A stretch of 64,000 nt of DNA from an uncultured Spartobacteria bacterium. GTDB lineage: Bacteria > Verrucomicrobiota > Verrucomicrobiia > Chthoniobacterales > Chthoniobacteraceae. The notes under the pieces are model-generated. The model saw only the letters and a program-made list of their open reading frames with translations. It had not been told where the DNA came from and ran no database searches. Made by a program: the position numbers and the translations under genes. Location of the stretch: NCBI GenBank assembly GCA_903882875.1, contig CAIRYQ010000023.1, positions 3,680 through 67,679 of the forward strand, given 5' to 3'. Position 1 is the stretch's first letter. Every line of letters begins with the position of its first letter. Shown here one piece after another: positions 19,471-30,171 of this stretch.

Positions 19471-20187
19471 TCAGCGCGTCCAGTGCCCGGCGTCGGTCGC
19501 GGGGATGGGCAGTTCGTCGGTCATGTACTGGCTCTTGCCAGTGAGCCCCCACATCGGGACACCGGTCGCCGAACGGAAACGTCCGGACATGCTCTCGCCC
19601 GTGTGGCAGCCCCAGCTCCGCACGAGCGCATCCTTTGTGAAGATGCCGCGGTTGATTTTCTTCATGTCAGTCTCGTGGAGCCAGACCTTCGATGCGCTGT
19701 CTATGTTGTTCGAGTAGTCAAAGAGCCAGCACGCCTTGTTGCTGTGGCCGAAGTAATCGAGATCGTTGATTTTCACGCGGTCGCGCGGCTGGCCCGCGTT
19801 GATGTAGTTCAGGAGCTGTGCAGTCGTGTCGAACCACATGAGTTTCACATGCAGCGACTCGCGGATTCCGTTGATGGCGCCGACGTAGTCCTGGCTGTCC
19901 TGCCGCCCGCGCGTGATGTAGGCGGGCCGGTACACGAGCCAGGTGATCGGCTGCTGCGGATTAATCTGCTGGATCTGCGCCATGCGGAGCTGCGCGGCGC
20001 GGATGAAATTCAGCCACCACTTGTCGTGAGGCTGCACCTTCCACTTTTCCCAGATGTAAAGTGAGAGGCCGCCGCTGATGATGATGGTCTCGCCGGGCTC
20101 CTTCGGTTCCGTCGGCGTCGCCGCACGCGAAAGCTGCGTACCAAAAAGTGCGAGTGCCGCGAGGAGAATTCTGAGCGCTTTGAACAT
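19471..20187 (-). CDS. Secreted hypothetical protein
   Basis: Signal peptide MFKALRILLAALALFGTQLSRA. Its composition looks like coding sequence, whereas the overlapping 519-aa plus-strand ORF is Arg/Ala/His-rich and looks like a shadow. No family recognised. Confidence 0.6.
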   Translation of the reverse strand: MFKALRILLAALALFGTQLSRAATPTEPKEPGETIIISGGLSLYIWEKWKVQPHDKWWLNFIRAAQLRMAQIQQINPQQPITWLVYRPAYITRGRQDSQDYVGAINGIRESLHVKLMWFDTTAQLLNYINAGQPRDRVKINDLDYFGHSNKACWLFDYSNNIDSASKVWLHETDMKKINRGIFTKDALVRSWGCHTGESMSGRFRSATGVPMWGLTGKSQYMTDELPIPATDAGHWTR

Positions 20188-20252: not shown

Positions 20253-21023
20253 TTAACCGTAGCGGCCCTCGATGTATTCCGAGGTGCGGCTGTCGCGCGG
20301 CGTGAGGAAAAGGTCCTCGGTGCGCGCGTGCTCGATGAGTTCGCCGAGCAGCATGAAGATGGTCTCGTCGCTTGCTCGCCGCGCCTGCGCCATGTTGTGC
20401 GTGACGATGACGATCGTGTAGCGGCCCGCGAGGCTCCACATCAGCTCCTCGATGGCGCGCGTGCCGTCCACGTCGAGCGCCGAGCACGGTTCGTCCATGA
20501 GGATGATTTCCGGTTTCAGCGGCAGCAGACGCGCGATGCAGAGCTTTTGCTGCTGCTCGAGTTGGAGATTGATCGCGCGGTCGTTGAGGCGATCTTTCAA
20601 GTCAGACCACAGGCCGGTTTCCGTGAGCGCCTTTTCGACAGCGTCATCGAGGTCGCCGCGTGAAAGACTTTTCTCCGCGTGAATGCGCAGGCCGAAGACG
20701 ACATTTTCGTAAATGGAAAGCGGCAGCGGATTCGGCCGCTGGAATACCATTCCGACCGCCTTGCGAAGCTCGATGAGCGAGACGTCCGGGTCGTAGATGT
20801 TTTTGCCGAGCAGCTTGATCTCGCCGGTCGTGGTCACGTTGCCGTAGCGCTCGTTCACGCGGTTGAAGCAGCGCAGCAGCGTCGTCTTCCCGCATCCGCT
20901 CGGCCCGATGAGCGACGTGATCTTGCCGTGCTTGATGTCCACGTTGATGCCCTTGAGCGCCTGGAACTTTCCATACCAGAGCTTCACGTCGCGCGTGGTG
21001 ATGCTGAGTCGGGCGTCGCTCAT
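20253..21023 (-). CDS. pstB: Phosphate ABC transporter ATP-binding protein PstB (canonical)
   Basis: Walker A GPSGCGKTT, Q-loop VGMVFQRPNP, signature-region QQQKLCIAR, Walker B ILMDEP, H-loop VIVTHNMAQA, C-terminal TSEYIEGRYG. Confidence 0.95.
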   Translation of the reverse strand: MSDARLSITTRDVKLWYGKFQALKGINVDIKHGKITSLIGPSGCGKTTLLRCFNRVNERYGNVTTTGEIKLLGKNIYDPDVSLIELRKAVGMVFQRPNPLPLSIYENVVFGLRIHAEKSLSRGDLDDAVEKALTETGLWSDLKDRLNDRAINLQLEQQQKLCIARLLPLKPEIILMDEPCSALDVDGTRAIEELMWSLAGRYTIVIVTHNMAQARRASDETIFMLLGELIEHARTEDLFLTPRDSRTSEYIEGRYG

Positions 21024-21778
21024 CCGAAGATTCCGTTCACGTAATCATACGTGCGTTTGTCCTTCGGCTTGTCGCCGAAGAGTTGTTCGGTCGGGCCGAG
21101 TTCGATGATCTCGCCATTCCAGAGGAACATCGTGCGCGCGGCGAGACGGCGCGCCTGCTGCACGAGGTTCGTCACGAGGATGATGGTCACCTCTTTTTTC
21201 AGCACCTTGAGTACATCCTCGATGCGCATCGTCGTCACCGGATCGATCGCGATGCTGAATTCGTCGAGGCACAAAATCTCGGGGCTGTGCGAAAGCGCGC
21301 GGGCGATCGTGAGGCGCTGCTGCTGTCCGCCGGAGAGTTTCGTGCCGAGCGAGTCGAGGCGGTCCTTCACCTCGTCCCACAGCGCGGACTGCGTGAGGCA
21401 TTTCTCCACGAGCGTATCGAGTTCGCCTTTCTTCTTCATGCCCGCGGCACGCGGGGCGAAGGCGACATTGTCGTAGATCGAGAGCGGTAGTCCGACCGGC
21501 AGAGGCGCGACCATGCCGACGCGGCGGCGCAGCTCATACACGTTCCGCATTTCCGAGATATCCTCGCCGTCCACGCGGATCGTGCCGCTCGGCTTCGCGC
21601 CGACGGTGAATTCAATCGTCCGGTTGATGCAGCGCAACAGCGAAGTCTTGCCGCTCTGCGCGGGGCCGATGATGCCGAGGATTTCGTTCGGCTCGATGTC
21701 GAACGAAATGCCGTGGATAACTTCCCTCGGCCCGTAGCTGAGCCGGAGGTTTTCGACCTGGACCTTGGGCTTCACCAT
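21020..21778 (-). CDS. PstB-like ABC ATPase paralog with degenerate Q-loop and H-loop
   Basis: 252 aa from the ATG at 21778. Walker A GPAQSGKTS, signature LSGGQQQR and Walker B ILCLDEF are present. The Q-loop Gln is absent (VGMVAPLP) and the H-loop His is replaced (ILVTNLVQQA). ATGA overlap with the pstB start. Confidence 0.85.
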   Translation of the reverse strand: MVKPKVQVENLRLSYGPREVIHGISFDIEPNEILGIIGPAQSGKTSLLRCINRTIEFTVGAKPSGTIRVDGEDISEMRNVYELRRRVGMVAPLPVGLPLSIYDNVAFAPRAAGMKKKGELDTLVEKCLTQSALWDEVKDRLDSLGTKLSGGQQQRLTIARALSHSPEILCLDEFSIAIDPVTTMRIEDVLKVLKKEVTIILVTNLVQQARRLAARTMFLWNGEIIELGPTEQLFGDKPKDKRTYDYVNGIFG

Positions 21779-22689
21779 TTTTTGCGTCCGCGCAGCCAGG
21801 AGCGGATGAGTATGGCAGTGAGATTTACGAACACCACGAGGCCGAGCAGCACGAGGGCGATGGCGAAGGACAATGCTTCGGGCGCATTCGTGACCTGCGT
21901 CTTCACGGCGAAGAGATGCGTCGAGAGCGCCATGCACTGATCGGTGATGTTGTATGCGAAGAGGTTCCCTTCCTCGATGCGCCGGTAAAACACGGCGCCG
22001 GTGAACATGATCGGCGCGGTCTCGCCGGCGGTGCGACTCACTTGCAAAATCACGCCGGTGAGGATGCCGCTGATCGAATTCGGCAGCACGATGCGCCAGA
22101 TGGTCTGCCACTTCGTCGCGCCGACATTCCAGCACGCCTCGCGGAACTGGCGCGGCACTGCGGCGAGCGCCTCCTTCGTCGAAGCGATGATGACCGGCAT
22201 GGTCATGATCGCGAGCGTGAGCGACGCGGCGAGGATGCTGCGTCCCATGTGCGCGAAGAGCACGAACGCGCCGAGGCCGAAGAGCGCATGCACGATGCTC
22301 GGCACGCCGGCGAGATTTACCACGGCGAGATTCACGACCCGGGTGAACCAATTGTCCTTCGCGTATTCGTTGAGATACACGGCGGCGAGCACGCCGATGG
22401 GCGCGCTGATGCAAAGCGAAACCCCGACGAGCCAGAACGTGCCGAGCAGCGCGCTCCAGATGCCGCCTTCGCGCATGCCGTGCGTCGGATTGGTCGTGAG
22501 AAATTTCCACGAGATCAGCGAGTAGCCCTCCTTCACGAGATAGCCGATGATGACGATGAGCGGGATGACGATGCACGCGACCATCACCGCGAAAATGGCG
22601 CGCGCGATTTTTTCGCTGCGCTGCTTTTTCCGCGTGAATGGCGTCTCGCCAAACTGCGCCACGGGCTGTGCGTCGGCTGGCATGTTCAT
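21772..22689 (-). CDS. pstA: Phosphate ABC transporter permease PstA
   Basis: 305 aa, multi-TM, with an EAA-like region EALAAVPRQFREACWNVGATKWQTIWRIVLP. Position in the pst operon. Confidence 0.9.
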   Translation of the reverse strand: MNMPADAQPVAQFGETPFTRKKQRSEKIARAIFAVMVACIVIPLIVIIGYLVKEGYSLISWKFLTTNPTHGMREGGIWSALLGTFWLVGVSLCISAPIGVLAAVYLNEYAKDNWFTRVVNLAVVNLAGVPSIVHALFGLGAFVLFAHMGRSILAASLTLAIMTMPVIIASTKEALAAVPRQFREACWNVGATKWQTIWRIVLPNSISGILTGVILQVSRTAGETAPIMFTGAVFYRRIEEGNLFAYNITDQCMALSTHLFAVKTQVTNAPEALSFAIALVLLGLVVFVNLTAILIRSWLRGRKKW

Positions 22690-23618
22690 TTCTTGCGGAC
22701 GCCTTTGACCACGAAGTCGGCGATGAGGTTGACGATGAAGGTGATCGTGAAAAGCAGGATGCCGATGAGAAAGAGCACCTGGTAGTGCGGCGAGTGCTCG
22801 CGCGTCTCACCGAGTTCGGCGGCGATGGTCGCGGTGAGCGTGCGGCAACTGTCGAAGATGCTGTGCGGGATTTGCACCGCATGACCGGTGGCCATGAGCA
22901 CGGCCATCGTCTCGCCGACTGCACGACCGACGCCGAGGAGCACGGCGGCGAGCAGGCCGTTCTTTGCCGCAGGCAAAAGGACGCGCCAGATGATCTGCCA
23001 GCGTGTCGCGCCGAGGGCGAGCGCGCCTTCGCGGTAGCTGTCGGGCACGGCCTTCAGCGCGTCTTCGCCGATGCTGACCATCACGGGGATGCTCATGAGC
23101 GCGAGGAGGATTGCGGCGTTGAGCACGTTCAGTCCGACGGGGACGTGGAAAAGGTTTTGGATGATCGGATTCATCACCGTGAGGCCGATGAATCCCCACA
23201 CGATGCTCGGGATCGCGGCGAGCAGTTCGATGACGATCTTCAAAATCTCCCGCACTTTTCCGGTGCAAAACTCGGAGACAAAAATCGCCGCGCCGAGTCC
23301 GAACGGCACAGCGATGAGCATCGCCACGCCGGTCACGCTCAGTGTGCCGGCGAGCAGGGCCAGTGTGCCGAAGCGCACATTGCTCATGGACGTGGGATAC
23401 CACTCGGTGCTGGTGAGGAATTTTCCGAGGCTGAAGTCCTTGCTCGCGAGGATCGGCGCGCCTTCGCGGAAGACGAAGAAGAAGATCGCGAAGACAAAGA
23501 TGATCGCGCTCACGCCGCAGAGGCGGATGAGCAGTTCGATGGCCTTTTCGCCGTAGATGCTGAGTGTGGAGCGGGAGCCTGTCATTTGCGGAAAAGGCGG
23601 GAGGCGCCGTTCAAGCAC
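22686..23618 (-). CDS. pstC: Phosphate ABC transporter permease PstC
   Basis: 310 aa, multi-TM, with DALKAVPDSYREGALALGATRWQIIWRVLLP. ATGA-type overlap with pstA. Confidence 0.9.
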   Translation of the reverse strand: MLERRLPPFPQMTGSRSTLSIYGEKAIELLIRLCGVSAIIFVFAIFFFVFREGAPILASKDFSLGKFLTSTEWYPTSMSNVRFGTLALLAGTLSVTGVAMLIAVPFGLGAAIFVSEFCTGKVREILKIVIELLAAIPSIVWGFIGLTVMNPIIQNLFHVPVGLNVLNAAILLALMSIPVMVSIGEDALKAVPDSYREGALALGATRWQIIWRVLLPAAKNGLLAAVLLGVGRAVGETMAVLMATGHAVQIPHSIFDSCRTLTATIAAELGETREHSPHYQVLFLIGILLFTITFIVNLIADFVVKGVRKK

Positions 23619-23648: not shown

Positions 23649-24566
23649 TTATTTTTCTTCCTTCGGTGCGAATTCCGGGAGCGGCACGTAGCCGGTCTCG
23701 ATCACGATTTTCTGTCCCGGCGCGGTGAGGATCCACTGGATGTATTCCTCGGCTTCGGGTTTTGCGTTGGGCGACACATACATGAACATCGGTCGCGCAA
23801 TCGGGTAGGTTTTGTCGAGTGTGGTCTTGATACTCGGGGCGACGCCTGCCTCGCCGGTTTTCTTCGAGACCTTCACGACTTTCACCTTGTCGGTCTTGTA
23901 GCCGATGCCGCTGAAGCCGATGGCCGTCGGCGTGGTGGCGACGAGGTCCACGACTTCCTTCGAGCCGTTCATGTCGCGCGAGCCCTGCTTGAAGTCGTTC
24001 TTCTTCCCGACCACCGCCTCGCGAAAATAGTGATACGTGCCGCTGTTGCTCTGGCGGCTGGCGCGGACGATATCGTCGCCGCCGGGGACGGTCACGCCGA
24101 GCTCGCTCCATTTGTTGATCTTGCCGCCCTCTTTGTAGATCTCGCTGAGCTGCTCGATAGAAATCTCGGTGATCGGGTTGCTCGGATGCACGTAGATGGC
24201 GAGCGCGTCGAAGCCGACGACATGTTCCTTCGGGTGCTTGCCTTCATATTTCGCCGCCGCCTTTTCCTCCTCCTCTTTTTCGAGGCTGCGCGAGCTGTTC
24301 GCGATGTCGCATGTGCCATTGATGAGCGCCGCGATGCCGACGCCGCTGCCGCCGCCGACGACTTCCACTGAGACGCCCTTCTTAACATCGTGGTAAGCCT
24401 CGGCCCATGCCTGCGCGAGGTTCACCATCGTGTCGGAGCCGATGTTTTGCAGGGCGATTTCGCCGCCTTTCTTGCCGCCGTCCGCGGAGCCTTTTTTGTC
24501 GCATCCGGTGAGGAAGAGTAGCGTCGCCGCGAGGGTCGCGAGCGCGAATGTGGATGTTCGTTTCAT
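23649..24566 (-). CDS. pstS: Phosphate-binding lipoprotein PstS (PhoT-type PBP)
   Basis: The ATG at 24566 gives MKRTSTFALATLAATLLFLTGC (lipobox). GSDTMVNLAQAWAEAY...GGGSGVGIAALINGTCDIANSSR is typical of PstS-family binding proteins. Confidence 0.85.
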   Translation of the reverse strand: MKRTSTFALATLAATLLFLTGCDKKGSADGGKKGGEIALQNIGSDTMVNLAQAWAEAYHDVKKGVSVEVVGGGSGVGIAALINGTCDIANSSRSLEKEEEEKAAAKYEGKHPKEHVVGFDALAIYVHPSNPITEISIEQLSEIYKEGGKINKWSELGVTVPGGDDIVRASRQSNSGTYHYFREAVVGKKNDFKQGSRDMNGSKEVVDLVATTPTAIGFSGIGYKTDKVKVVKVSKKTGEAGVAPSIKTTLDKTYPIARPMFMYVSPNAKPEAEEYIQWILTAPGQKIVIETGYVPLPEFAPKEEK

Positions 24567-24588
24567 GTTCTTTGGTTGGTTGGAAAAA

Positions 24589-25686
24589 TCAGCCGATGCT
24601 GTCGCTGAGCACGGCGTCGCAGAGTTCGGAGATGTGTTCGTGGAGAAACTGGTAGGCGGACTCGTAGGCCGCGCGCTTTTCCTCGTCGCTGCCGGTGACC
24701 TCCGAAGGATCCGGCAGGCTCCAGTCGAGGCACACGGCCTTGGTTGGTTTCGGGAAGGCCTTCTTCGCTGCGGGTGTGAGCGCGACGATGATTTGCGCGG
24801 AGTCGAGGTTCGGGAGCTGCCCGACGTTGCGGCTCTGCGCATGAGAGAGGTCCACGTTCTTGCTCCGCATGAATTCCACCGTGCCCGGATCCAGTTCGGT
24901 CGGCGTGAGGCCGGCGCTGGCGAAGACGAATTGCGGGCGATCCAGTGCGGTGCCGATGGCTTCGGCCATCTGGCTGCGGCAACTGTTGCGGTCGTCTATG
25001 AAAACCATGCGCCACGTTTCGCCGCCGAGTTTGCCGGGATATTGGCCGGTCGCCATGTAGATCACGTCCTCGCAGATGTTCGTGGCCTGGTCGGAGACGC
25101 GTTCGAACCGGCGCGCGATGGTCATCAGCGGCGTGAGCGCCTCGAGCGGGATGAGGTTTTCCGAGCGCAGCTTGAACAGCTCGTTGTTGATGACGTTGCG
25201 CAGCGCATCCACCTCGTATTCGCGGCCGAGGACATCGCGCGCGAGCGCCTCGTCGCCCGCGATGAATGCCTTCACCGCGTCGCGCAGCATCGGGATGCTG
25301 AGGCTGCCGATCTGCTGGAAACGCTCGATGGGAATGTGCGCGTTCACCTTCGCGAGCTTCAGCATCTGCCGCGCGACGCTTTCCGCGTAGTCGCCGATGC
25401 GCTCCAGCTCCAGCGTCACGCGGATCGTGATGTACGCAAAGCGCAGGCTGCGCGCGACGGGCTGCTGGCGGATGAGAAATTCCAGGCACAGCCGATCGAG
25501 TTCCTTCTCCAATTCATCAATGCGCCGGTCGCGCAAAATCACCGCATAGGCGAGCTGGCGGTCGCGCGTGGTGAGCGCCTTAATGCACGCCTCCAGCGCA
25601 CCTTCCGCGAGGCGCGCCATCTCGGCGACCTTGTGCTTGATGCGATCAACGTCGTGCTGCAGCGAGTCTTCGTAGTGGGATGGCAT
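24589..25686 (-). CDS. phoU: PhoU-family phosphate signalling protein fused to a cysteine-less ArsC/LMW-PTP-like domain
   Basis: The ATG at 25686 gives 365 aa. Residues ~1-215 carry two PhoU repeats (ELERIGDYAESVA and RRFERVSDQATNICEDV). The C-terminal ~140 aa match Staphylococcus pI258-type ArsC/LMW-PTP (MVFIDDRNSCRSQMAEA vs IYFICTGNSCRSQMAEG). Confidence 0.85.
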   Translation of the reverse strand: MPSHYEDSLQHDVDRIKHKVAEMARLAEGALEACIKALTTRDRQLAYAVILRDRRIDELEKELDRLCLEFLIRQQPVARSLRFAYITIRVTLELERIGDYAESVARQMLKLAKVNAHIPIERFQQIGSLSIPMLRDAVKAFIAGDEALARDVLGREYEVDALRNVINNELFKLRSENLIPLEALTPLMTIARRFERVSDQATNICEDVIYMATGQYPGKLGGETWRMVFIDDRNSCRSQMAEAIGTALDRPQFVFASAGLTPTELDPGTVEFMRSKNVDLSHAQSRNVGQLPNLDSAQIIVALTPAAKKAFPKPTKAVCLDWSLPDPSEVTGSDEEKRAAYESAYQFLHEHISELCDAVLSDSIG

Positions 25687-25878
25687 CAGTGGAGGCAAGG
25701 GTGAGAGGTTGCGTGCGGCATGTGGCGGTTGCGTGGCAGTTGGGAGCCAAAGACGTGACACTGCAATCTTTCGTCCCGGCAATTCAACTGCGGAAAAACC
25801 GGCGGGAAAAATTCATCCGTGGGTTCGGCGGCGCCGGATCGAACGGCGGCCGCGCGAAGTCCACCACAGAACAAGATT

Positions 25879-27054
25879 TTACCAAAACATCCGGAACCCG
25901 ACGAGCGTGGTCCAGCCGCGGTAATTGGCGTTTGCGCCCTTGCCGCCGGTGAGTTCGTCGTACTGCGCGCCGACCATGAGTTTCATTTTCTGTCCGTGGA
26001 TGTAGTAGTTCAGCCCGACGTAGGCGGAGTCGTATTTGCTGCCGGTGAATTTCCCGACGCTGCTCACCTGCCGGTTCAGCATGGTGATGCCGTTGGCCTG
26101 ATCCGAACTGCCGTACTGGTAGCGGGTGATCACCTCCAGCTTCTCCGGGATGATGTAAAATGACGGCATGAGCGTCACGCCGACAACGTCACCCTTCGCG
26201 GTGGTGCCGTTGCCGTAGGCGATCTGCGCCACAAGGCAGAAGCGGCCATTCTGAAAGTCGAAGTAAGTCGCCCCCGCGTTGTGCATCGTGTTGAACACGT
26301 TGCTCTGGCCGTTCAGGTCAATGTGCATGTAGTCCGCCGCCCACAGCGCCTTGTCCACGCCGAACGCCTTTGAGAAGTCGTAGCTCAGCTCGAACAGCTC
26401 GCTCGATCCGCCGTTGAAGGTTCCGAACTCCTTGTTCGCCATGTTCGAGAACATCGCGGCCTGATAGCCGAAGTTGCCGATTTTTCCGAGGACGGACACG
26501 CCGCTCGTGTAGTCGTTGCCCGTGTTGTTAAAGAGCTGATCGTCGAAGAATCCGCGCTCGAAAAACTTCTGCGTGTTGTCCGAGAACTCGCGGTCGTAGC
26601 CGAAGTGCGGCTCGAACTTGCCCACACGGATGTTCAGCGCATCGTTGATGTGGAAGTTAAGATAGAGATCCGTCATCCGGTTGTAGAAGACGGCTTGCTT
26701 GTGGTAGGCGTCCAGCGCGGTGTCCACCGTCGCCTTCAACTCCACATGGCGGTCGAAGAACCACGAATCAATGCCGAGGCGGAAGCGCCGGATTTCCGTG
26801 AAGTCAATGTCGCCCTGCTTGAACGCCTTGGGCTTGTTGTCGGCATTGATGCCGAACCAGTCGAGCTGTAAGCGCCCGGTAAAGTCGAACTCCTCGATGA
26901 TGTGGTTGCTGTCGTTCTTGTAGAGCACCGGCAGCTCCCATAGCCTGTCGAGGGCGGACTCCGGTTTCGGTGTGGCTGCGATGACGTCGGCTGTTCCGGC
27001 AAATGCGGAGGCAGTGACGAGGGCGAGGCTCAGGGTGAGGGTGGTTTTCAACAT
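25879..27054 (-). CDS. Phosphate-selective porin O/P family outer membrane protein
   Basis: The ATG at 27054 gives signal peptide MLKTTLTLSLALVTASAFA. FTGRLQLDWFG motif, beta-rich sequence ending in an aromatic residue (FRMFW). Lies directly upstream of the phoU-pst operon. Confidence 0.75.
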   Translation of the reverse strand: MLKTTLTLSLALVTASAFAGTADVIAATPKPESALDRLWELPVLYKNDSNHIIEEFDFTGRLQLDWFGINADNKPKAFKQGDIDFTEIRRFRLGIDSWFFDRHVELKATVDTALDAYHKQAVFYNRMTDLYLNFHINDALNIRVGKFEPHFGYDREFSDNTQKFFERGFFDDQLFNNTGNDYTSGVSVLGKIGNFGYQAAMFSNMANKEFGTFNGGSSELFELSYDFSKAFGVDKALWAADYMHIDLNGQSNVFNTMHNAGATYFDFQNGRFCLVAQIAYGNGTTAKGDVVGVTLMPSFYIIPEKLEVITRYQYGSSDQANGITMLNRQVSSVGKFTGSKYDSAYVGLNYYIHGQKMKLMVGAQYDELTGGKGANANYRGWTTLVGFRMFW

Positions 27055-27241
27055 GGTGGTGTGTGTCTTGGGTGTTTCGATTGCGGCGCAAAGGTGGCAC
27101 CCAAATGTTACGAACAGATGGCGACTCGGTGCCGTTATCGAAACATCCGCGACGAAATGCCGCATTTATGCGTCAACAGTGACATCCCGGCGTCTCCAGT
27201 CTGCTCTTGTCAAACACGCTTCCCACAGCCCACAAGGCGCA

Positions 27242-27595
27242 ATGAAGAAGAGCCTTTTCTCCCTGCTGGCCCTCACGCTCACGCTCACCCTCCACGCTGA
27301 GGAAAAGCTCACGCTCAAGGGTTCCAATTCGCTCCGGGTGACACTCATGCCGAAGCTCTCCGAAGCCTATCGCGCCACGGGCAAAAGGGTGAAGTTTTCC
27401 ATCTCCGCCGAAGGTTCCTCCACGGCATTTCCGGCGCTGCTGAACGGTAACGCGGACATCGGCATGAGCAGCCGCAAAATCACCGCAGAGGAATCCGCGA
27501 TGTTCCGCATCAAGGGCGCGGTGGTCAGCCAGACGCTCCTTTGCATGTGCATGCTTGCCGCAGTGCATCCGGCAGCCTATTCCGTGCAGGCGTGA
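27242..27595 (+). pseudogene. Truncated PstS-family phosphate-binding protein remnant (N-terminal ~117 aa only)
   Basis: Signal peptide MKKSLFSLLALTLTLTLHA, then LKGSNSL...AEGSSTAFPALLNGNADIGMSSRKITAEE, matching the first lobe of PstS-type PBPs. It stops after ~117 codons, where full-length proteins have ~300. Confidence 0.5.
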
Positions 27596-27999
27596 AAGCA
27601 TTTTTTGCCATCCTCTTCGCCACCGCCCTGACCTGCGCCGTCACCGCGGCACCGGCGGCACCGAAAATCGTCTCTCCGGACGAGGCCGAGGTGCTCATCA
27701 AAGAAACTCCCGCGCTCGTCATCCTCGACGTGCGGACGCCGGACGAATTTGCCGGCGGACACATCCACGGCGCGAAGAACGTGGATTTTTTCGGCGATGA
27801 TTTTGAGAAGCAAATCGCCGCCCTCGATCCCGCGAAGCCGGTGCTCGTGCATTGCGCGGCGGGAGGCCGCAGCTCGCAGGCGGTGGAAAAGCTCGCGGCG
27901 CTGAAAAAGCCCCCGGTCATCTATCACCTCAAGGCCGGATTCAACGGCTGGAAGGCGGCAAAGAAACCCGTGGAAGGCAAACCGGCGGAGGGAAAATAG
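27592..27999 (+). CDS. Secreted single-domain rhodanese-like sulfurtransferase
   Basis: The GTG at 27592 (GTGA overlap with the preceding stop) gives signal-like VKAFFAILFATALTCAVTAAPA. Rhodanese core ILDVRTPDEFAGGHIHGAKNV...VLVHCAAGGRSSQA includes the active-site Cys loop. Confidence 0.75.
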   Translation: MKAFFAILFATALTCAVTAAPAAPKIVSPDEAEVLIKETPALVILDVRTPDEFAGGHIHGAKNVDFFGDDFEKQIAALDPAKPVLVHCAAGGRSSQAVEKLAALKKPPVIYHLKAGFNGWKAAKKPVEGKPAEGK

Positions 28000-28165
28000 C
28001 CGTCTTCTCCACTTCGTTTCGCGCATGAAACTGGCCTGCATCGCACGCACCGAACAGGCCATCAGTCGGCGCGGCAGGCCGGGTGGATGACCTCAGTTTT
28101 CGCGTTCGGGTTGTCGAAAGTTTCATGACTGTATGAATCGGGAAGAGCGTGGGTTTTCTTAAGCG

Positions 28166-29137
28166 TCACGCCACCGGGTGGAGGATGCGCAGCAGCAGCA
28201 CGGTGAGCGCCGCGAGCGCCGCGCCGCACGGGAGCGTGACCAGCCAGCAGAGGGCGATCTGGCCGACGGATTTCCAATGCGCCTTGCGCGTGACGGTGCC
28301 GATGCCGACGAGCGAGCCGACGCTGACGTGCGTGGTGCTCACGGGCAGCGAGTAGAATGTCGCGGCGTTGACGAGCAGCGCGGTGGCGACGTTTGCGGCG
28401 AAGCCTTCGCCGGGATTCATGCCGGTGATCTTTTTGCCGAGGGTCTCGGCGACGTTGCGCGCGTCGAGCAATCCGCCGATGGCCATCGTCACCGCGACGG
28501 CGAGGAAACCCCAGCGGATGTCGAGCGCGTGCGCGACCATGAGCAGCGCGGCCATCTTCGGCGTGTCATTCAGCCCGCGCGCAAAGCTCGCCGCGCCGCC
28601 GCTGAGGAAATGCAGCGTGTCGAGCGTGCGCGTGCGATGATCAGGAAGAAGGCGCGCGGCTTTCAGGATGAAATAGACGAGCGCACCCGCGGCGATGGCC
28701 AGCACCGGGCTGAGCAGCAGTGGATTCACGAATGTCTTGATGAGCGGCGTGAGATGCACCGTGTGATCGCCGCTCGCGAGTCCCGCGCCGACGAGCGCAC
28801 CCACGAGCGCGTGCGTGGTCGAGACGGGAAAGCTCAGCCGCGTGGCGAGAAAACTCGTGATCGCCGCGCCGAGCGCGACAGCGAGCAGGAAGTCCGACGA
28901 CTGCGTGAGCGCATCCGGCACGAGGCCCTTGCCGCTGAACGCCGCGAGCAACCCGCGCGCGGCGAAGAGCGCGGTGATGGCCCCGGCGAAAGTCGTCGCC
29001 GTTCCCCACCAAATCGTCGTGCGCAGGCTCGCGGTGCCGCTGCCGTAAATGGAGGCGACGCCCTTGAAGTTTGCGTTCGCGCCGTTCGTAAACGCGACGA
29101 AGCACGTCGCGATGAAGAGGAGGATGATGAGGATCAC
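28166..29137 (-). CDS. PiT-family (PHO4) inorganic anion transporter
   Basis: 323 aa, multi-TM. N-terminal FTNGANANFKGVASIYG and internal repeat ARGLNDTPK...VSTTHVSVGSLVGIG match PiT-family repeats. Confidence 0.85.
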   Translation of the reverse strand: MILIILLFIATCFVAFTNGANANFKGVASIYGSGTASLRTTIWWGTATTFAGAITALFAARGLLAAFSGKGLVPDALTQSSDFLLAVALGAAITSFLATRLSFPVSTTHALVGALVGAGLASGDHTVHLTPLIKTFVNPLLLSPVLAIAAGALVYFILKAARLLPDHRTRTLDTLHFLSGGAASFARGLNDTPKMAALLMVAHALDIRWGFLAVAVTMAIGGLLDARNVAETLGKKITGMNPGEGFAANVATALLVNAATFYSLPVSTTHVSVGSLVGIGTVTRKAHWKSVGQIALCWLVTLPCGAALAALTVLLLRILHPVA

Positions 29138-29229
29138 GGGGGCGGGAAGTTTTGTTGCAGGCAGTCAAAAGCACAACTGCGCCGCCACCCGAAGGCAGCG
29201 ACGCAGTCGTCCTTTCACACAACGGTGAG

Positions 29230-30171
29230 TTACTTTCCGGCTGGCTCGCCGCCGGTCTCGGCGGGCAGGGACTTGTCCTTGAGCCAGACGTATTCCTTCC
29301 ACGCGCCCTCGTAGAGGCGCACGTTCGGATAGTGGGCAACGTGCTTGAGATAGAAGCGCAGCAGGCTGCCTTCGCGCGACGTGGCGCAGTAGCAGATGAT
29401 GTTTTTGTCGGGCGTGATGCCGGCTTTTTCCAGCTCAGCCTTCGTCTCGGAGAACGGCTTGAACTTATGCGTGTTGTCCTTCTCCATCAGCCGCGCCCAG
29501 TGGAAGCTGATCGCGCCGGGGATGTGGCCCTTGCGCAGCCAGATTTCGTCCTGGCCCTGGAACTCGTTGATCGGGCGCGCATCAATCAGCAGGTTGCCCG
29601 GCTTGCCGACATGCTTCTGCACGTCGGTGACGTTTGCGGCGATTTCGGGGCTCGTCTTTTTCGGCAGATGGCCGGGAGGATTGCCGAAGTAATCCTGCGT
29701 CGGCGCGAAGCCCTGCTTCTTCCACTCGGGCAGGCCGCCGTCCACGATCTTCACGTCCTTGAAGCCGAATTTCTCCAGCACATGCACGACCATCGTGCTG
29801 CTGAGGATTTCGTCGTTCGGAAGCTCCGCTCCGGTGGCATAGACAAGAATCAGGCGATCCTTGTCCGCGCCCGCGCGGATGAGCAGCGCGCGCGTGAGAT
29901 CATCGGGAAGATACTGCACCGGCACGGCGTGGTCGGTGCCGCGCAGTGTGTCGAACTCGAGGTGATGCGCCGTGGGAAGATGGCCGCGGAAGTAGTCCTT
30001 GTAGCCGCCGCGCGTGTCGAGGACGATCGGGCGCTTCTTCGCGTCCGGGTCTTCGATGAGCTTCTTTGCATCGGCGGGCGAGATGACGCCGATGTCCGCT
30101 AGCACGGGCCGCGCGGAGACGGTGAGCAATGCGACGGACGCGAGGAGCGTGAGGATTGGTTTGAGTTTCAT
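29230..30171 (-). CDS. Secreted tandem-rhodanese sulfurtransferase (SseA/thiosulfate sulfurtransferase-like)
   Basis: The ATG at 30171 gives signal peptide MKLKPILTLLASVALLTVSARPVLA. Two rhodanese modules; the second carries an active-site Cys (IICYCATSREGS). Confidence 0.8.
   Translation of the reverse strand: MKLKPILTLLASVALLTVSARPVLADIGVISPADAKKLIEDPDAKKRPIVLDTRGGYKDYFRGHLPTAHHLEFDTLRGTDHAVPVQYLPDDLTRALLIRAGADKDRLILVYATGAELPNDEILSSTMVVHVLEKFGFKDVKIVDGGLPEWKKQGFAPTQDYFGNPPGHLPKKTSPEIAANVTDVQKHVGKPGNLLIDARPINEFQGQDEIWLRKGHIPGAISFHWARLMEKDNTHKFKPFSETKAELEKAGITPDKNIICYCATSREGSLLRFYLKHVAHYPNVRLYEGAWKEYVWLKDKSLPAETGGEPAGK

What the first reader, a model, noticed from the sequence alone, without database searches (positions are those of the whole stretch)
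24589..25686. PhoU fused to an ArsC/LMW-PTP domain that has lost all three catalytic cysteines but keeps the anion-binding P-loop
The C-terminal ~140 aa align well with pI258-type ArsC: MVFIDDRNSCRSQMAEA vs IYFICTGNSCRSQMAEG, and DWSLPDP vs HWGFDDP. The nucleophile Cys10 is Asp. The Cys82/Cys89 equivalents are Thr and Phe (IVALTPAAKKAFP vs VVTLCSDADNNCP). The oxyanion-binding residues of the P-loop (RNSCRS) are retained. A catalytically dead phosphate/arsenate-binding fold fused to the Pho-regulon modulator PhoU, as the first gene of the pstSCAB operon, suggests a built-in phosphate-sensing module.
Basis: partly seen in the sequence, partly recalled or inferred. Interest (0 to 1): 0.65.

Follow-up and report, generated by a model that had tools for sequence, protein, structure and literature searches.

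The report
PhoU fused to dead arsenate-reductase domain
The regulator of a bacterial phosphate-uptake pump carries a conserved extra domain, a former arsenate-reductase enzyme that has lost its catalytic cysteines, and it always travels with a pump whose two ATP motors are unequal; what the extra domain does is untested.

Summary
Window 24589-25686 (-) encodes a 365-aa protein made of a full PhoU (residues 1-215) and an ArsC/LMW-PTP-fold domain (225-365). Asp231 replaces the nucleophile Cys10, Thr304 replaces Cys82, and Ala310/Phe311 replaces Cys89. Asn234, Arg237, Ser238 and Asp326-Pro327 are kept. Pfam, NCBIfam, PDB sequence alignments and an AlphaFold model searched with Foldseek all agree.

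The fusion is widespread: at least 470 species genomes in Verrucomicrobiota, Myxococcota and Acidobacteriota. In all 80 loci examined it heads the cassette phoU*-pstS-pstC-pstA-pstB1-pstB2. PstB1/PstB2 are a conserved asymmetric pair with one consensus and one degenerate ATP site.

The "built-in phosphate sensor" reading is only partly supported. Across diverse fusion representatives the P-loop Arg is usually lost (Leu 20, Arg 17 of 48). A carboxylate at position 231 or 232 is nearly universal.

My best reading is a pseudoenzyme module under purifying selection that serves this PhoU in controlling the asymmetric Pst ATPase. I infer that Asp231 replaces the thiolate as the internal anion of the P-loop. 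Oxyanion sensing remains possible in this clade. I found no literature on the fusion. It is a new variant of a known kind, of moderate interest.

The parts
24589..25686 (-). Whole gene: PhoU fused to an ArsC-like pseudoenzyme domain (365 aa plus stop)
   Evidence: ORF and translation. Homologues are 365 aa with 100% coverage.
25042..25686 (-). PhoU domain, residues 1-215. Two PhoU repeats; the E95-R-I-G-D99 and E195-R-V-S-D199 motifs are invariant.
   Evidence: Pfam PF01895 with two stretches. TIGR02135 at 165 bits, above cut-off. Foldseek 1t72/4q25 TMt 0.95. Invariant columns.
25015..25041 (-). Interdomain linker, residues 216-224 (YPGKLGGET)
   Evidence: Residues 218-222 have pLDDT below 50, flanked by high-confidence domains.
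24592..25014 (-). ArsC/LMW-PTP-fold domain, residues 225-365, lacking catalytic cysteines
   Evidence: Pfam LMWPc 32.6 bits against cut-off 23.2. PDB 1jl3 E 2.5e-10. Foldseek ArsC TMt 0.85-0.87.
24973..24996 (-). Degenerate P-loop D231-D-R-N-S-C-R-S238. Asp231 (24994-24996) is in place of the nucleophile Cys10. Asn13, Cys15, Arg16 and Ser17 equivalents are kept.
   Evidence: Read directly from the sequence. Alignments. DSSP shows beta1 ending at 231 and the helix starting at 237. Conservation: D 121/121, N 118, C 119, R 102, S 120.
24754..24777 (-). T304...A310-F311: the positions of the redox pair Cys82/Cys89 of thioredoxin-type ArsC, neither of which is Cys here
24706..24732 (-). C319-L-D-W-S-L-P-D326-P327: beta4 plus the Asp-Pro loop (equivalent of general acid Asp105). 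Cys319 is clade-specific.
   Evidence: alignment. Conservation: C319 115/121, W322 120, D326 118, P327 119. C319 is replaced by F/G/Y/T/L in other clades.
25687..25878 (-). Intergenic region between the porin gene and phoU. It contains a conserved block (about 25700-25770) with TTGCAGTGTCAC and TGTCAC/TGCCAC/CGCCAC repeats at 22- and 11-nt spacing.
   Evidence: Alignment with 7 related loci. No sigma-70 or terminator consensus was found. The motif is unique in the window.
23649..24566 (-). pstS (lipoprotein, PstS family), starting 22 nt after the phoU stop
   Evidence: PF12849. TIGR02136 at 239 bits, above cut-off. Start codon read.
22686..23618 (-). pstC
   Evidence: TIGR02138 at 295 bits, above cut-off.
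21772..22689 (-). pstA
   Evidence: TIGR00974 at 268 bits, above cut-off.
21020..21778 (-). pstB1, a degenerate ATPase subunit. The Q-loop Gln is lost (VAPLPVG), Walker B is LCLDEFSIAID, and the H-loop His is Asn (VTNLV). The signature LSGGQQQR is canonical.
   Evidence: Motifs tabulated across loci. TIGR00972 at 273.6 bits, below cut-off 343.
20253..21023 (-). pstB2, with canonical Walker A/B, Q-loop and H-loop but a degenerate signature, LQLEQQQK
   Evidence: TIGR00972 at 328.6 bits, below cut-off 343.
25879..27165 (-). Phosphate-selective porin O/P family gene upstream on the same strand
   Evidence: PF07396 at 38.8 bits. It is present upstream in the closest loci L001-L007.

Best explanation
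SHOWN: The protein is a genuine PhoU. Its C-terminus carries a roughly 140-aa domain of the LMW-PTP/ArsC fold whose closest relatives are thioredoxin-type arsenate reductases. The domain lacks the nucleophile Cys (Asp231 instead) and both resolving cysteines, so it cannot perform the ArsC thiol cascade or Cys-based phosphatase chemistry.

The domain evolves about as slowly as the PhoU part. It heads a cassette, phoU*-pstS-pstC-pstA-pstB1-pstB2, that is conserved across three phyla. In that cassette PstB1 (degenerate Q-loop and H-loop) and PstB2 (degenerate signature) together make one consensus and one degenerate ATP site.

INFERRED: The domain is a pseudoenzyme, a non-catalytic regulatory or docking module. 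Through it this PhoU is matched to, and modulates, the asymmetric PstB1/PstB2 ATPase and possibly PhoR. The near-universal carboxylate at the end of beta1 (Asp231, or Gly-Glu in Acidobacteriota) takes the place of the thiolate as the internal anion that satisfies the P-loop amides and the helix dipole. This explains why Arg16 becomes dispensable in most lineages.

In the window's clade the P-loop is still complete (Asn, Arg, Ser, Asp-Pro). Pi or arsenate binding could therefore be an added, clade-level input, but it is not what maintains the fusion.
For: - Domain identity and dead active site.
- Purifying selection: over 69 complete cassettes, mean identity to the window is 58% for the LMWPc domain, 63% for PhoU and 62% for PstS.
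- Wide distribution: at least 470 species genomes, and more than 120 clusters at 90% identity that are all 365-aa fusions.
- Synteny: the order is invariant in 80/80 loci and also holds in the Arg-less class (L082).
- Asymmetric PstB pair conserved: VTNLx H-loop in 67 of 71 PstB1 and LxLEQQQK signature in 60 of 61 PstB2.
- Reverse test: 15 of about 19 informative metagenome loci with a VTNL-type PstB1 have a PhoU with this extension, including very degenerate ones.
- Family-wide pattern: the nucleophile position is D36/S6/C2/G2/Y1/E1 and the Arg position is L20/R17/A5/other 6 among 48 PhoU-linked representatives. An acidic residue sits at 231/232 in 121/121, 80/80 and 41/48, against 1/52 stand-alone ArsCs.
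- Active-site residues relax while core residues stay conserved.
- 40 of 41 PhoU-linked domains form one clade in an NJ tree.
Against: - No binding partner or interface was tested. The AF2 pTM of 0.61 shows that the relative orientation of the two domains is not defined.
- In the window's own clade Asn234, Cys236, Ser238, Asp326 and Pro327 are 98-99% conserved and Arg237 84%. This is what a still-used ligand pocket would look like.
- The link to the asymmetric PstB is not exclusive. L104, L106 and L119 have a VTNL-type PstB1 with a plain PhoU or none, and more distant asymmetric pairs use a plain PhoU.
- The 'carboxylate plug' idea is chemical inference, not measurement.
Confidence: 0.55

Rival explanations
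1. First reader's model. The dead ArsC domain is a cytoplasmic oxyanion (Pi, perhaps arsenate) receptor. Pi sits in the retained P-loop (backbone amides plus Arg237, Ser238, Asn234, capped by Asp326). Occupancy is passed through the linker to PhoU, which then throttles PstB ATPase and/or switches PhoR.
For: All non-cysteine active-site residues are present in this protein and are among the best-conserved columns of its clade. In the 80 best genome loci Arg is present in about 70. Fusion to the Pi-signalling protein at the head of a Pi-uptake operon is a sensible place for a sensor. A thiolate-bearing P-loop binds oxyanions, so a carboxylate there is not necessarily prohibitive. From my own knowledge, the PTP1B C215D mutant still binds substrate (Romsicki 2003); I only confirmed that this reference exists.
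Against: Arg is lost in 31 of 48 diverse PhoU-linked representatives, mostly to Leu, and in 16 of 121 close homologues. Asn, Ser and the Asp-Pro loop also decay, yet the cassette is unchanged. A carboxylate in the centre of the anion hole should disfavour a dianion at neutral pH (inference). No binding data exist.
Confidence: 0.25
2. The domain is still an enzyme. It would be either a phosphatase using Asp231 as nucleophile (acyl-phosphate intermediate), or an arsenate reductase using Cys236/Cys319 with an external thiol.
For: Asp231 is invariant in the clade and is usually followed by a second acidic residue. Arg237, Ser238 and the general-acid Asp326 are retained. Two cysteines (236, 319) are 95-98% conserved in the clade. 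A PhoU fused to an ArsC with an intact Cys10/Cys82/Cys89 triad exists (P0185).
Against: From my own knowledge, no member of PF01451 is known to use Asp. Acidobacterial members have Gly at position 231. Arg is lost in most lineages. Cys236 is the non-essential Cys15 position, and many stand-alone ArsCs have Ala there. Cys319 is F/G/Y/T/L in other clades. TIGR02691 scores 62 bits against a cut-off of 174.
Confidence: 0.07
3. Redox switch. Cys236 and Cys319 (or Cys205/Cys356) form a reversible disulfide that tunes PhoU activity.
For: Cys236 is present in 119/121 and Cys319 in 115/121 of the clade. The parent enzyme family works by disulfide cascades.
Against: The two cysteines do not co-vary outside the clade. 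Examples are P0121 (A, C), P0123 (C, A) and P0124 (C, L). Their distance in the model could not be measured with the tools available.
Confidence: 0.05
4. Evolutionary relic. A once-active PhoU-ArsC fusion (arsenate enters through Pst) decayed, and the domain now has no function beyond folding.
For: Active-site decay is seen across the family. A fusion with an intact triad exists.
Against: The domain is retained in at least 470 species genomes from three phyla and diverges at about the same rate as PhoU and PstS. No truncated or deleted versions were seen among the 80 loci. P0185 groups with stand-alone ArsCs and may be an independent fusion.
Confidence: 0.05

Closest known systems
Canonical PhoU (E. 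coli PhoU; structures 1T72 Aquifex, 4Q25 Pseudomonas, 2I0M S. pneumoniae)
   Same: Residues 1-215 have two PhoU repeats, a six-helix-bundle fold (TMt 0.95) and both ExxxD motifs, score above the TIGR02135 equivalog cut-off, and are encoded in a pst operon.
   Different: It carries a 140-aa C-terminal domain. It is the first rather than the last gene of the operon. It is paired with two non-equivalent PstB subunits.
Thioredoxin-coupled arsenate reductase ArsC (pI258 1LJL, B. subtilis 1JL3; TIGR02691) and the Synechocystis hybrid ArsC (2L17, P-loop CKRNSCRS)
   Same: Same fold (TMt 0.85-0.87). P-loop xxRNSCRSQMAE, SAG motif and the DW..DP loop. About 25% identity, E 2.5e-10.
   Different: Cys10 is Asp, Cys82 is Thr and Cys89 is Ala/Phe. 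It scores well below the equivalog cut-off (62 against 174 bits). It is fused to PhoU.
Pseudophosphatases such as STYX (Cys to Gly), and the engineered PTP1B C215D (own knowledge; the reference is listed in PMC3172300)
   Same: A PTP-type P-loop fold is retained with the nucleophile Cys replaced, kept under selection for a non-catalytic role.
   Different: Different PTP class (LMW/ArsC), bacterial, a natural Cys-to-Asp change, and a covalent fusion to a transport regulator. No phospho-ligand is known.
Heterodimeric ABC ATPases with one degenerate site (TM287/288, TAP1/2, CFTR; reviewed by Stockner 2020, cited in PMC11466899)
   Same: PstB1 contributes degenerate Q-loop and H-loop, and PstB2 contributes the degenerate signature to the same composite site. 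The other site is fully consensus.
   Different: This is a type I importer for phosphate. My searches found no description of such asymmetry in a Pst system.
PhoU fused to an ArsC with an intact catalytic triad (P0185, groundwater MAG GCA_016205125.1)
   Same: Same two-domain order and length (366 aa).
   Different: It keeps Cys10, Arg16, Cys82, Cys89 and Asp105. It follows a canonical single pstB. It groups with stand-alone ArsCs in the NJ tree, so it may be an independent fusion.

Membership tests
PhoU (TIGR02135 / PF01895) | Two PhoU repeats scoring above the curated cut-offs | tested here: met
   PF01895 at 133 bits with two stretches. TIGR02135 at 165.3 bits against cut-off 130.25.
PhoU (TIGR02135 / PF01895) | Six-helix bundle made of two three-helix repeats | tested here: met
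   AF2 model helices span 4-213. Foldseek 1t72_A TMt 0.95, rmsd 1.8.
PhoU (TIGR02135 / PF01895) | Conserved E(D)xxxD metal-binding motifs in both repeats | tested here: met
   E95, D99, E195 and D199 are invariant in 52 aligned homologues.
PhoU (TIGR02135 / PF01895) | Encoded with pstSCAB | tested here: met
   The gene order is atypical, with phoU first.
PhoU (TIGR02135 / PF01895) | Binds PstB/PhoR and represses Pho signalling or Pst transport | not testable with these tools
   Needs genetics or biochemistry.
LMW-PTP / ArsC superfamily (PF01451) | Four-stranded parallel sheet alpha/beta fold with the P-loop between beta1 and alpha1 | tested here: met
   PF01451 at 32.6 bits against cut-off 23.2. 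Foldseek 8p6m/1jl3 TMt 0.85-0.87. beta1 spans 225-231 and the helix starts at 237.
LMW-PTP / ArsC superfamily (PF01451) | C-X5-R-(S/T) motif with a nucleophilic Cys | tested here: not met
   The motif is D231-DRNSC-R237-S238. Asp is at the Cys position in 121/121 close homologues.
LMW-PTP / ArsC superfamily (PF01451) | P-loop Arg and Ser/Thr, plus the general-acid Asp in the DP loop | tested here: met
   R237, S238 and D326-P327 are present. They are not conserved across the wider fusion family.
Thioredoxin-type arsenate reductase (TIGR02691) | Cys10-Cys82-Cys89 disulfide cascade | tested here: not met
   The three positions are Asp231, Thr304 and Ala310/Phe311.
Thioredoxin-type arsenate reductase (TIGR02691) | Score above the equivalog cut-off | tested here: not met
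   62.2 bits against 174.3.
Pseudoenzyme (pseudo-phosphatase/reductase) domain | Fold retained, catalytic residues lost, and sequence kept under purifying selection | tested here: met
   The domain shows 58% mean identity across three phyla, similar to PhoU (63%) and PstS (62%).
Pseudoenzyme (pseudo-phosphatase/reductase) domain | Absence of catalytic activity shown experimentally | not testable with these tools
   Needs enzyme assays.
Asymmetric (one degenerate site) ABC ATPase pair, for PstB1/PstB2 | Degenerate Walker-side motifs in one subunit and a degenerate signature in the partner, converging on one composite site | tested here: met
   PstB1 has VAPLPVG (no Q-loop Gln) and VTNLV (H-loop Asn) with LSGGQQQR. 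PstB2 has canonical A/Q/B/H motifs with LQLEQQQK. This is conserved in 60-67 loci.

The most novel reading that the evidence does not exclude
The dead ArsC domain is the missing cytoplasmic phosphate (or arsenate) receptor of the Pho system in these bacteria. Oxyanion occupancy of its Asp/Arg P-loop is relayed through PhoU to the single catalytic ATP site of an asymmetric PstB1/PstB2 motor. This would be a one-polypeptide feedback sensor that gates uptake. In other lineages the pocket would have been rewired, or replaced by reading the nucleotide state of the degenerate site.
Probability: 0.2. Interest if true: 0.8.

Novelty: new variant of a known kind. Interest (0 to 1): 0.55.

Why it matters
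How PhoU and the Pst transporter report phosphate status is a long-standing open question. No ligand-binding input to PhoU is established.

Here there is a large natural family, covering at least 470 species genomes in three phyla. In it PhoU is welded to a former oxyanion-handling enzyme and is always encoded with a Pst motor that has one dead ATP site. That gives two concrete handles:
- an isolable 140-aa domain that can be tested for Pi or arsenate binding and for contacts with PstB1, PstB2 or PhoR;
- an ATPase pair in which the regulatory and catalytic sites are physically separated.

It is also a clean bacterial example of an enzyme becoming a pseudoenzyme. The family shows a graded series, from an intact triad to Asp/Arg, then Asp/Leu, then an unrecognisable P-loop.

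Annotation pipelines currently name these proteins plain PhoU and ignore the extra domain.

Tried and rejected
- **Shifted nucleophile.** Rejected. The only P-loop Cys (236) aligns with the non-catalytic Cys15, and the model's beta1 ends at Asp231.
- **Chance similarity.** Rejected, on Pfam above cut-off, PDB E 2.5e-10 and Foldseek TMt 0.86.
- **Single-genome oddity or assembly artefact.** Rejected, given more than 120 clusters and at least 470 genome loci.
- **Literature.** Four searches returned no paper on a PhoU-LMWPc/ArsC fusion, on bacterial LMW pseudophosphatases, or on a degenerate PstB site.
- **Promoter and terminator scan of 24400-26000.** Nothing was found. Sigma-70 consensus may not apply to this phylum.
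- **Second PhoU or ArsC in the window.** None was found. No phoB/phoR was found among the 20 neighbouring ORFs scanned.
- **P0185 as ancestor of the fusion.** I first thought the shared junction (NICEEVIY..TG) proved a single origin. That motif is the normal PhoU C-terminus, and the NJ tree places the P0185 domain among stand-alone ArsCs. Common origin is therefore unproven.
- **Strict one-to-one coupling of the domain with the degenerate PstB1.** Rejected by the reverse test, with exceptions L104, L106 and L119 and plain-PhoU asymmetric cassettes.
- **Cys236-Cys319 distance and pocket geometry.** These could not be measured because model coordinates are not exposed.
- **Complex prediction with PstB1/B2.** This is not possible with the single-chain tool.
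Full report
**1. What is at the coordinates**

Window 24589-25686 on the minus strand is one ORF. It starts at the ATG at 25686 and encodes 365 aa. A longer TTG-initiated version (to 25782) is unlikely, because more than 100 homologues are exactly 364-366 aa and align end to end.

Pfam finds PhoU (two stretches, 133 bits). It also finds LMWPc PF01451 at 32.6 bits against a gathering score of 23.2, covering residues 228-348. NCBIfam places the N-terminal 215 residues in the PhoU equivalog TIGR02135 (165 bits, cut-off 130). The C-terminus hits arsC_pI258_fam TIGR02691 at only 62 bits against a cut-off of 174.

A PDB sequence search with the C-terminal 148 aa gives B. subtilis ArsC 1jl3 (E 2.5e-10), followed by Synechocystis, Deinococcus and pI258 ArsCs.

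An AlphaFold2 model built on 52 homologues has pLDDT 91.4, with a disordered linker at 218-222. Foldseek matches residues 1-215 to PhoU structures (1t72 TMt 0.95). It matches the rest to ArsC (8p6m, 1jl3; TMt 0.85-0.87), ahead of the protein phosphatases YwlE and Wzb.

**2. The cysteines**

The HMMER alignments put Asp231 on Cys10, Thr304 on Cys82, and Ala310 (gapped) or Phe311 (ungapped or profile) on Cys89.

In the model beta1 ends at Asp231 and helix alpha1 begins at Arg237, which is the CX5R geometry. Cys236 is the equivalent of Cys15, which many real ArsCs replace by Ala. It is therefore not a displaced nucleophile.

Asn234, Arg237, Ser238, Glu242 and Asp326-Pro327 correspond to Asn13, Arg16, Ser17, Glu21 and Asp105-Pro106.

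**3. Surroundings**

All the following genes lie on the minus strand:
- a phosphate-selective porin O/P gene (27165-25879);
- 190 bp of intergenic DNA;
- phoU*;
- after 22 nt, pstS (24566-23649), then pstC, pstA, pstB1 (21778-21020) and pstB2 (21023-20253).

PstS, PstC and PstA pass their NCBIfam cut-offs. Both PstBs hit TIGR00972 best but fall below its cut-off.

A PHO4/PiT-family transporter and two rhodanese genes lie just upstream. No phoB/phoR, second PhoU or ArsC is present in the 64 kb.

The intergenic DNA upstream of phoU contains a block conserved in seven related loci. It carries TGTCAC-like hexamers at 22- and 11-nt spacing. This resembles the periodicity of Pho boxes, but I did not test it.

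**4. Distribution**

The fusion is common.
- All 120 best cluster representatives (58-92% identity) are about 365 aa, and nearly all carry both Pfam domains. Sources name them only 'phosphate signaling complex protein PhoU'.
- A scan of one genome per species found at least 470 loci. The best 80 carry titles of Verrucomicrobiota (54), Myxococcota/'delta' (12), Acidobacteriota (9) and 5 evidently mislabelled MAGs.
- The closest relatives (88% over the domain) are Chthoniobacterales MAGs, which places the window.

**5. Synteny and the asymmetric motor**

In 80/80 loci the order is phoU*-pstS-pstC-pstA-pstB1-pstB2 wherever the contig reaches. The two PstBs are not equivalent.
- PstB1 lacks the Q-loop Gln (VAPLPVG), has Walker B LCLDEFSIAID and an H-loop Asn (VTNLV), but keeps LSGGQQQR.
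- PstB2 has canonical Walker A, Q-loop, Walker B and H-loop, but the signature LQLEQQQK.

These states hold in 60-67 loci. Each ATP site is built from the Walker side of one subunit and the signature of the other. The pair therefore has one fully consensus site and one doubly degenerate site.

PstB1 is as conserved as PstB2 (78% and 79% mean identity). The ArsC-like domain (58%) diverges about as fast as PhoU (63%) and PstS (62%). The domain is therefore under purifying selection.

**6. Reverse test**

I scanned metagenome contigs with a PstB1 alignment. Of about 19 informative loci with a VTNL-type PstB1, 15 have a PhoU with the extension.
- Eight are in the window's gene order.
- Seven are in the order pstS-phoU*-pstC-pstA-pstB1-pstB2.
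- Six of the seven still match my domain HMM (E 1e-16 to 1.6e-9). Their P-loops are badly degenerate, for example LFLDQPGSDLGQ and LFLDEGNNTLSL.
- The seventh, L108 (ILSTGSDQLGP), gave no HMM match. I count it on its 138-aa extension and SAG motif only.

Exceptions exist: L104 has no PhoU, L106 has two plain PhoUs, and L119 has a plain PhoU after pstB2. More distant asymmetric pairs (PstB1 about 47% identical, PstB2 signature LSLEQQQR) use a plain PhoU at the operon end.

So every fusion I saw in its clade comes with an asymmetric motor, but the reverse is not true.

**7. What the family says about the pocket**

Close clade (121 sequences):
- D231 121/121
- N234 118/121
- C236 119/121
- R237 102/121 (Thr 10, Ala 6)
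- S238 120/121
- C319 115/121
- D326 118/121

An exhaustive HMMER search of 1.84 billion cluster representatives with the domain alone gave 1466 hits. I classified the best 150 by a PhoU HMM and by P-loop state. Among 48 PhoU-linked representatives:
- the nucleophile position is D 36, S 6, C 2, G 2, Y 1, E 1;
- the Arg position is L 20, R 17, A 5, other 6.

Asn, Ser and the Asp-Pro loop drop to 59-72%, whereas core residues stay at 79% or higher (L228, F229, M240, A241, E242, S257-A258-G259, G277, W322).

A carboxylate at 231 or 232 is found in 121/121, 80/80 and 41/48 fusions. Acidobacteria use Gly-Glu. Only 1/52 stand-alone Cys-ArsCs has an acidic residue at the +1 position.

The Arg-less class sits in the same cassette with the same asymmetric PstBs (L082). 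Canonical oxyanion binding by Arg16 therefore cannot be the function that maintains the fusion. The conserved feature is the carboxylate.

My inference is that the carboxylate replaces the thiolate as the internal anion of the P-loop 'nest'. This makes Arg dispensable. It is chemical reasoning, not a measurement.

**8. Origin**

One representative, P0185 (366 aa), is a PhoU fused to an ArsC with Cys10, Arg16, Cys82, Cys89 and Asp105 all intact. It is encoded directly after a canonical pstB.

In a rough NJ tree 40 of 41 PhoU-linked domains form one clade. That clade also contains six short, probably truncated, 'stand-alone' Asp/Ser sequences. P0185 falls among the stand-alone ArsCs.

P0185 is therefore either an independent fusion or a slowly evolving survivor. 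I cannot tell which. Either way PhoU and ArsC-type domains have been joined at least once and perhaps twice. This fits the fact, from established knowledge, that arsenate enters cells through phosphate transporters.

**9. Mechanism**

Shown:
- the protein's identity;
- the dead active site;
- purifying selection on the domain;
- the conserved cassette;
- the asymmetric ATPase pair.

Inferred, best reading (0.55): a non-catalytic pseudoenzyme module by which this PhoU is fitted to, and regulates, the asymmetric PstB1/PstB2 motor and possibly PhoR.

Rivals:
- Oxyanion sensor (0.25). It is still viable for this clade, whose pocket is complete.
- Residual catalysis via Asp231 or Cys236/Cys319 (0.07).
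- Redox switch (0.05).
- Functionless relic (0.05).

None could be tested directly.

**10. Known or new**

Database pipelines record both Pfam domains but name the protein plain PhoU. Full-text searches found no paper on the fusion, on bacterial LMW-type pseudophosphatases, or on a degenerate ATP site in Pst.

I rate it a new variant of a known kind. The functional label should be softened from 'phosphate sensor' to 'conserved pseudo-ArsC regulatory domain, ligand unknown'.

Interest is 0.55. The finding is a widespread, unstudied and experimentally tractable handle on PhoU/Pst signalling, but no mechanism has been demonstrated.

Noticed in passing
window 20253-21778 (-), and L001-L082, L086-L126: The tandem pstB genes form a conserved asymmetric pair. 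PstB1 has lost the Q-loop Gln and the H-loop His (VAPLPVG, VTNLV). PstB2 has the degenerate signature LQLEQQQK. Together they give one consensus and one degenerate ATP site in a phosphate importer. My searches found no description of this.
   Followed up: yes
L081 (GCA_016205125.1, contig JACQJE010000206.1) 2977-4077: P0185 is a PhoU fused to an ArsC domain with all catalytic residues intact (Cys10, Arg16, Cys82, Cys89, Asp105). It is encoded right after a canonical pstB. It groups with stand-alone ArsCs in an NJ tree.
   Followed up: partly
L108, L111, L115, L118, L120, L126, L132 (metagenome contigs): A second cassette layout, pstS-phoU*-pstC-pstA-pstB1-pstB2. The PhoU extension is a far more degenerate version of the same domain, with the P-loop Asn, Arg and Ser lost.
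   Followed up: partly
window 25700-25770 (-): A conserved non-coding block upstream of phoU (TTGCAGTGTCAC ... CTGCCAC ... CGCCACA). Its hexamers are spaced 22 and 11 nt apart, and in relatives it forms a TGTTACG/CGTAACA inverted pair. It is a possible Pho box or operator. No sigma-70 consensus was found.
   Followed up: partly
window 27242-27595 (+): A 117-aa ORF with a signal peptide that matches only positions 24-88 of the 267-position PstS-type PBP_like_2 profile. It looks like a truncated or remnant pstS-like gene between the porin and a rhodanese gene.
   Followed up: partly
window 27541-30138: A PHO4/PiT-family transporter (28166-29137, -) is flanked by a single-domain rhodanese (27541-27999, +) and a double-domain rhodanese (29230-30138, -). 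NCBIfam's best hit for the transporter is a CysP-type sulfate permease, well below cut-off, so its substrate (Pi or sulfate) is unclear.
   Followed up: no
window 19471-20187 (-): A 238-aa ORF with an N-terminal signal-like sequence lies directly downstream of pstB2. It has no Pfam match.
   Followed up: no
L001-L080: Cassette proteins are 58-79% identical on average between Verrucomicrobiota, Myxococcota and Acidobacteriota. This suggests horizontal transfer of the whole six-gene unit. Several MAG titles (Bifidobacterium, Akkermansia muciniphila, Prosthecobacter debontii from lake samples) look mis-assigned.
   Followed up: no
L082 11296-13403: In one Arg-less-class locus the cassette is followed by two response regulators and a PAS-HisKA-HATPase kinase, a candidate PhoBR-like partner. 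Nothing comparable lies near the cassette in the window.
   Followed up: no
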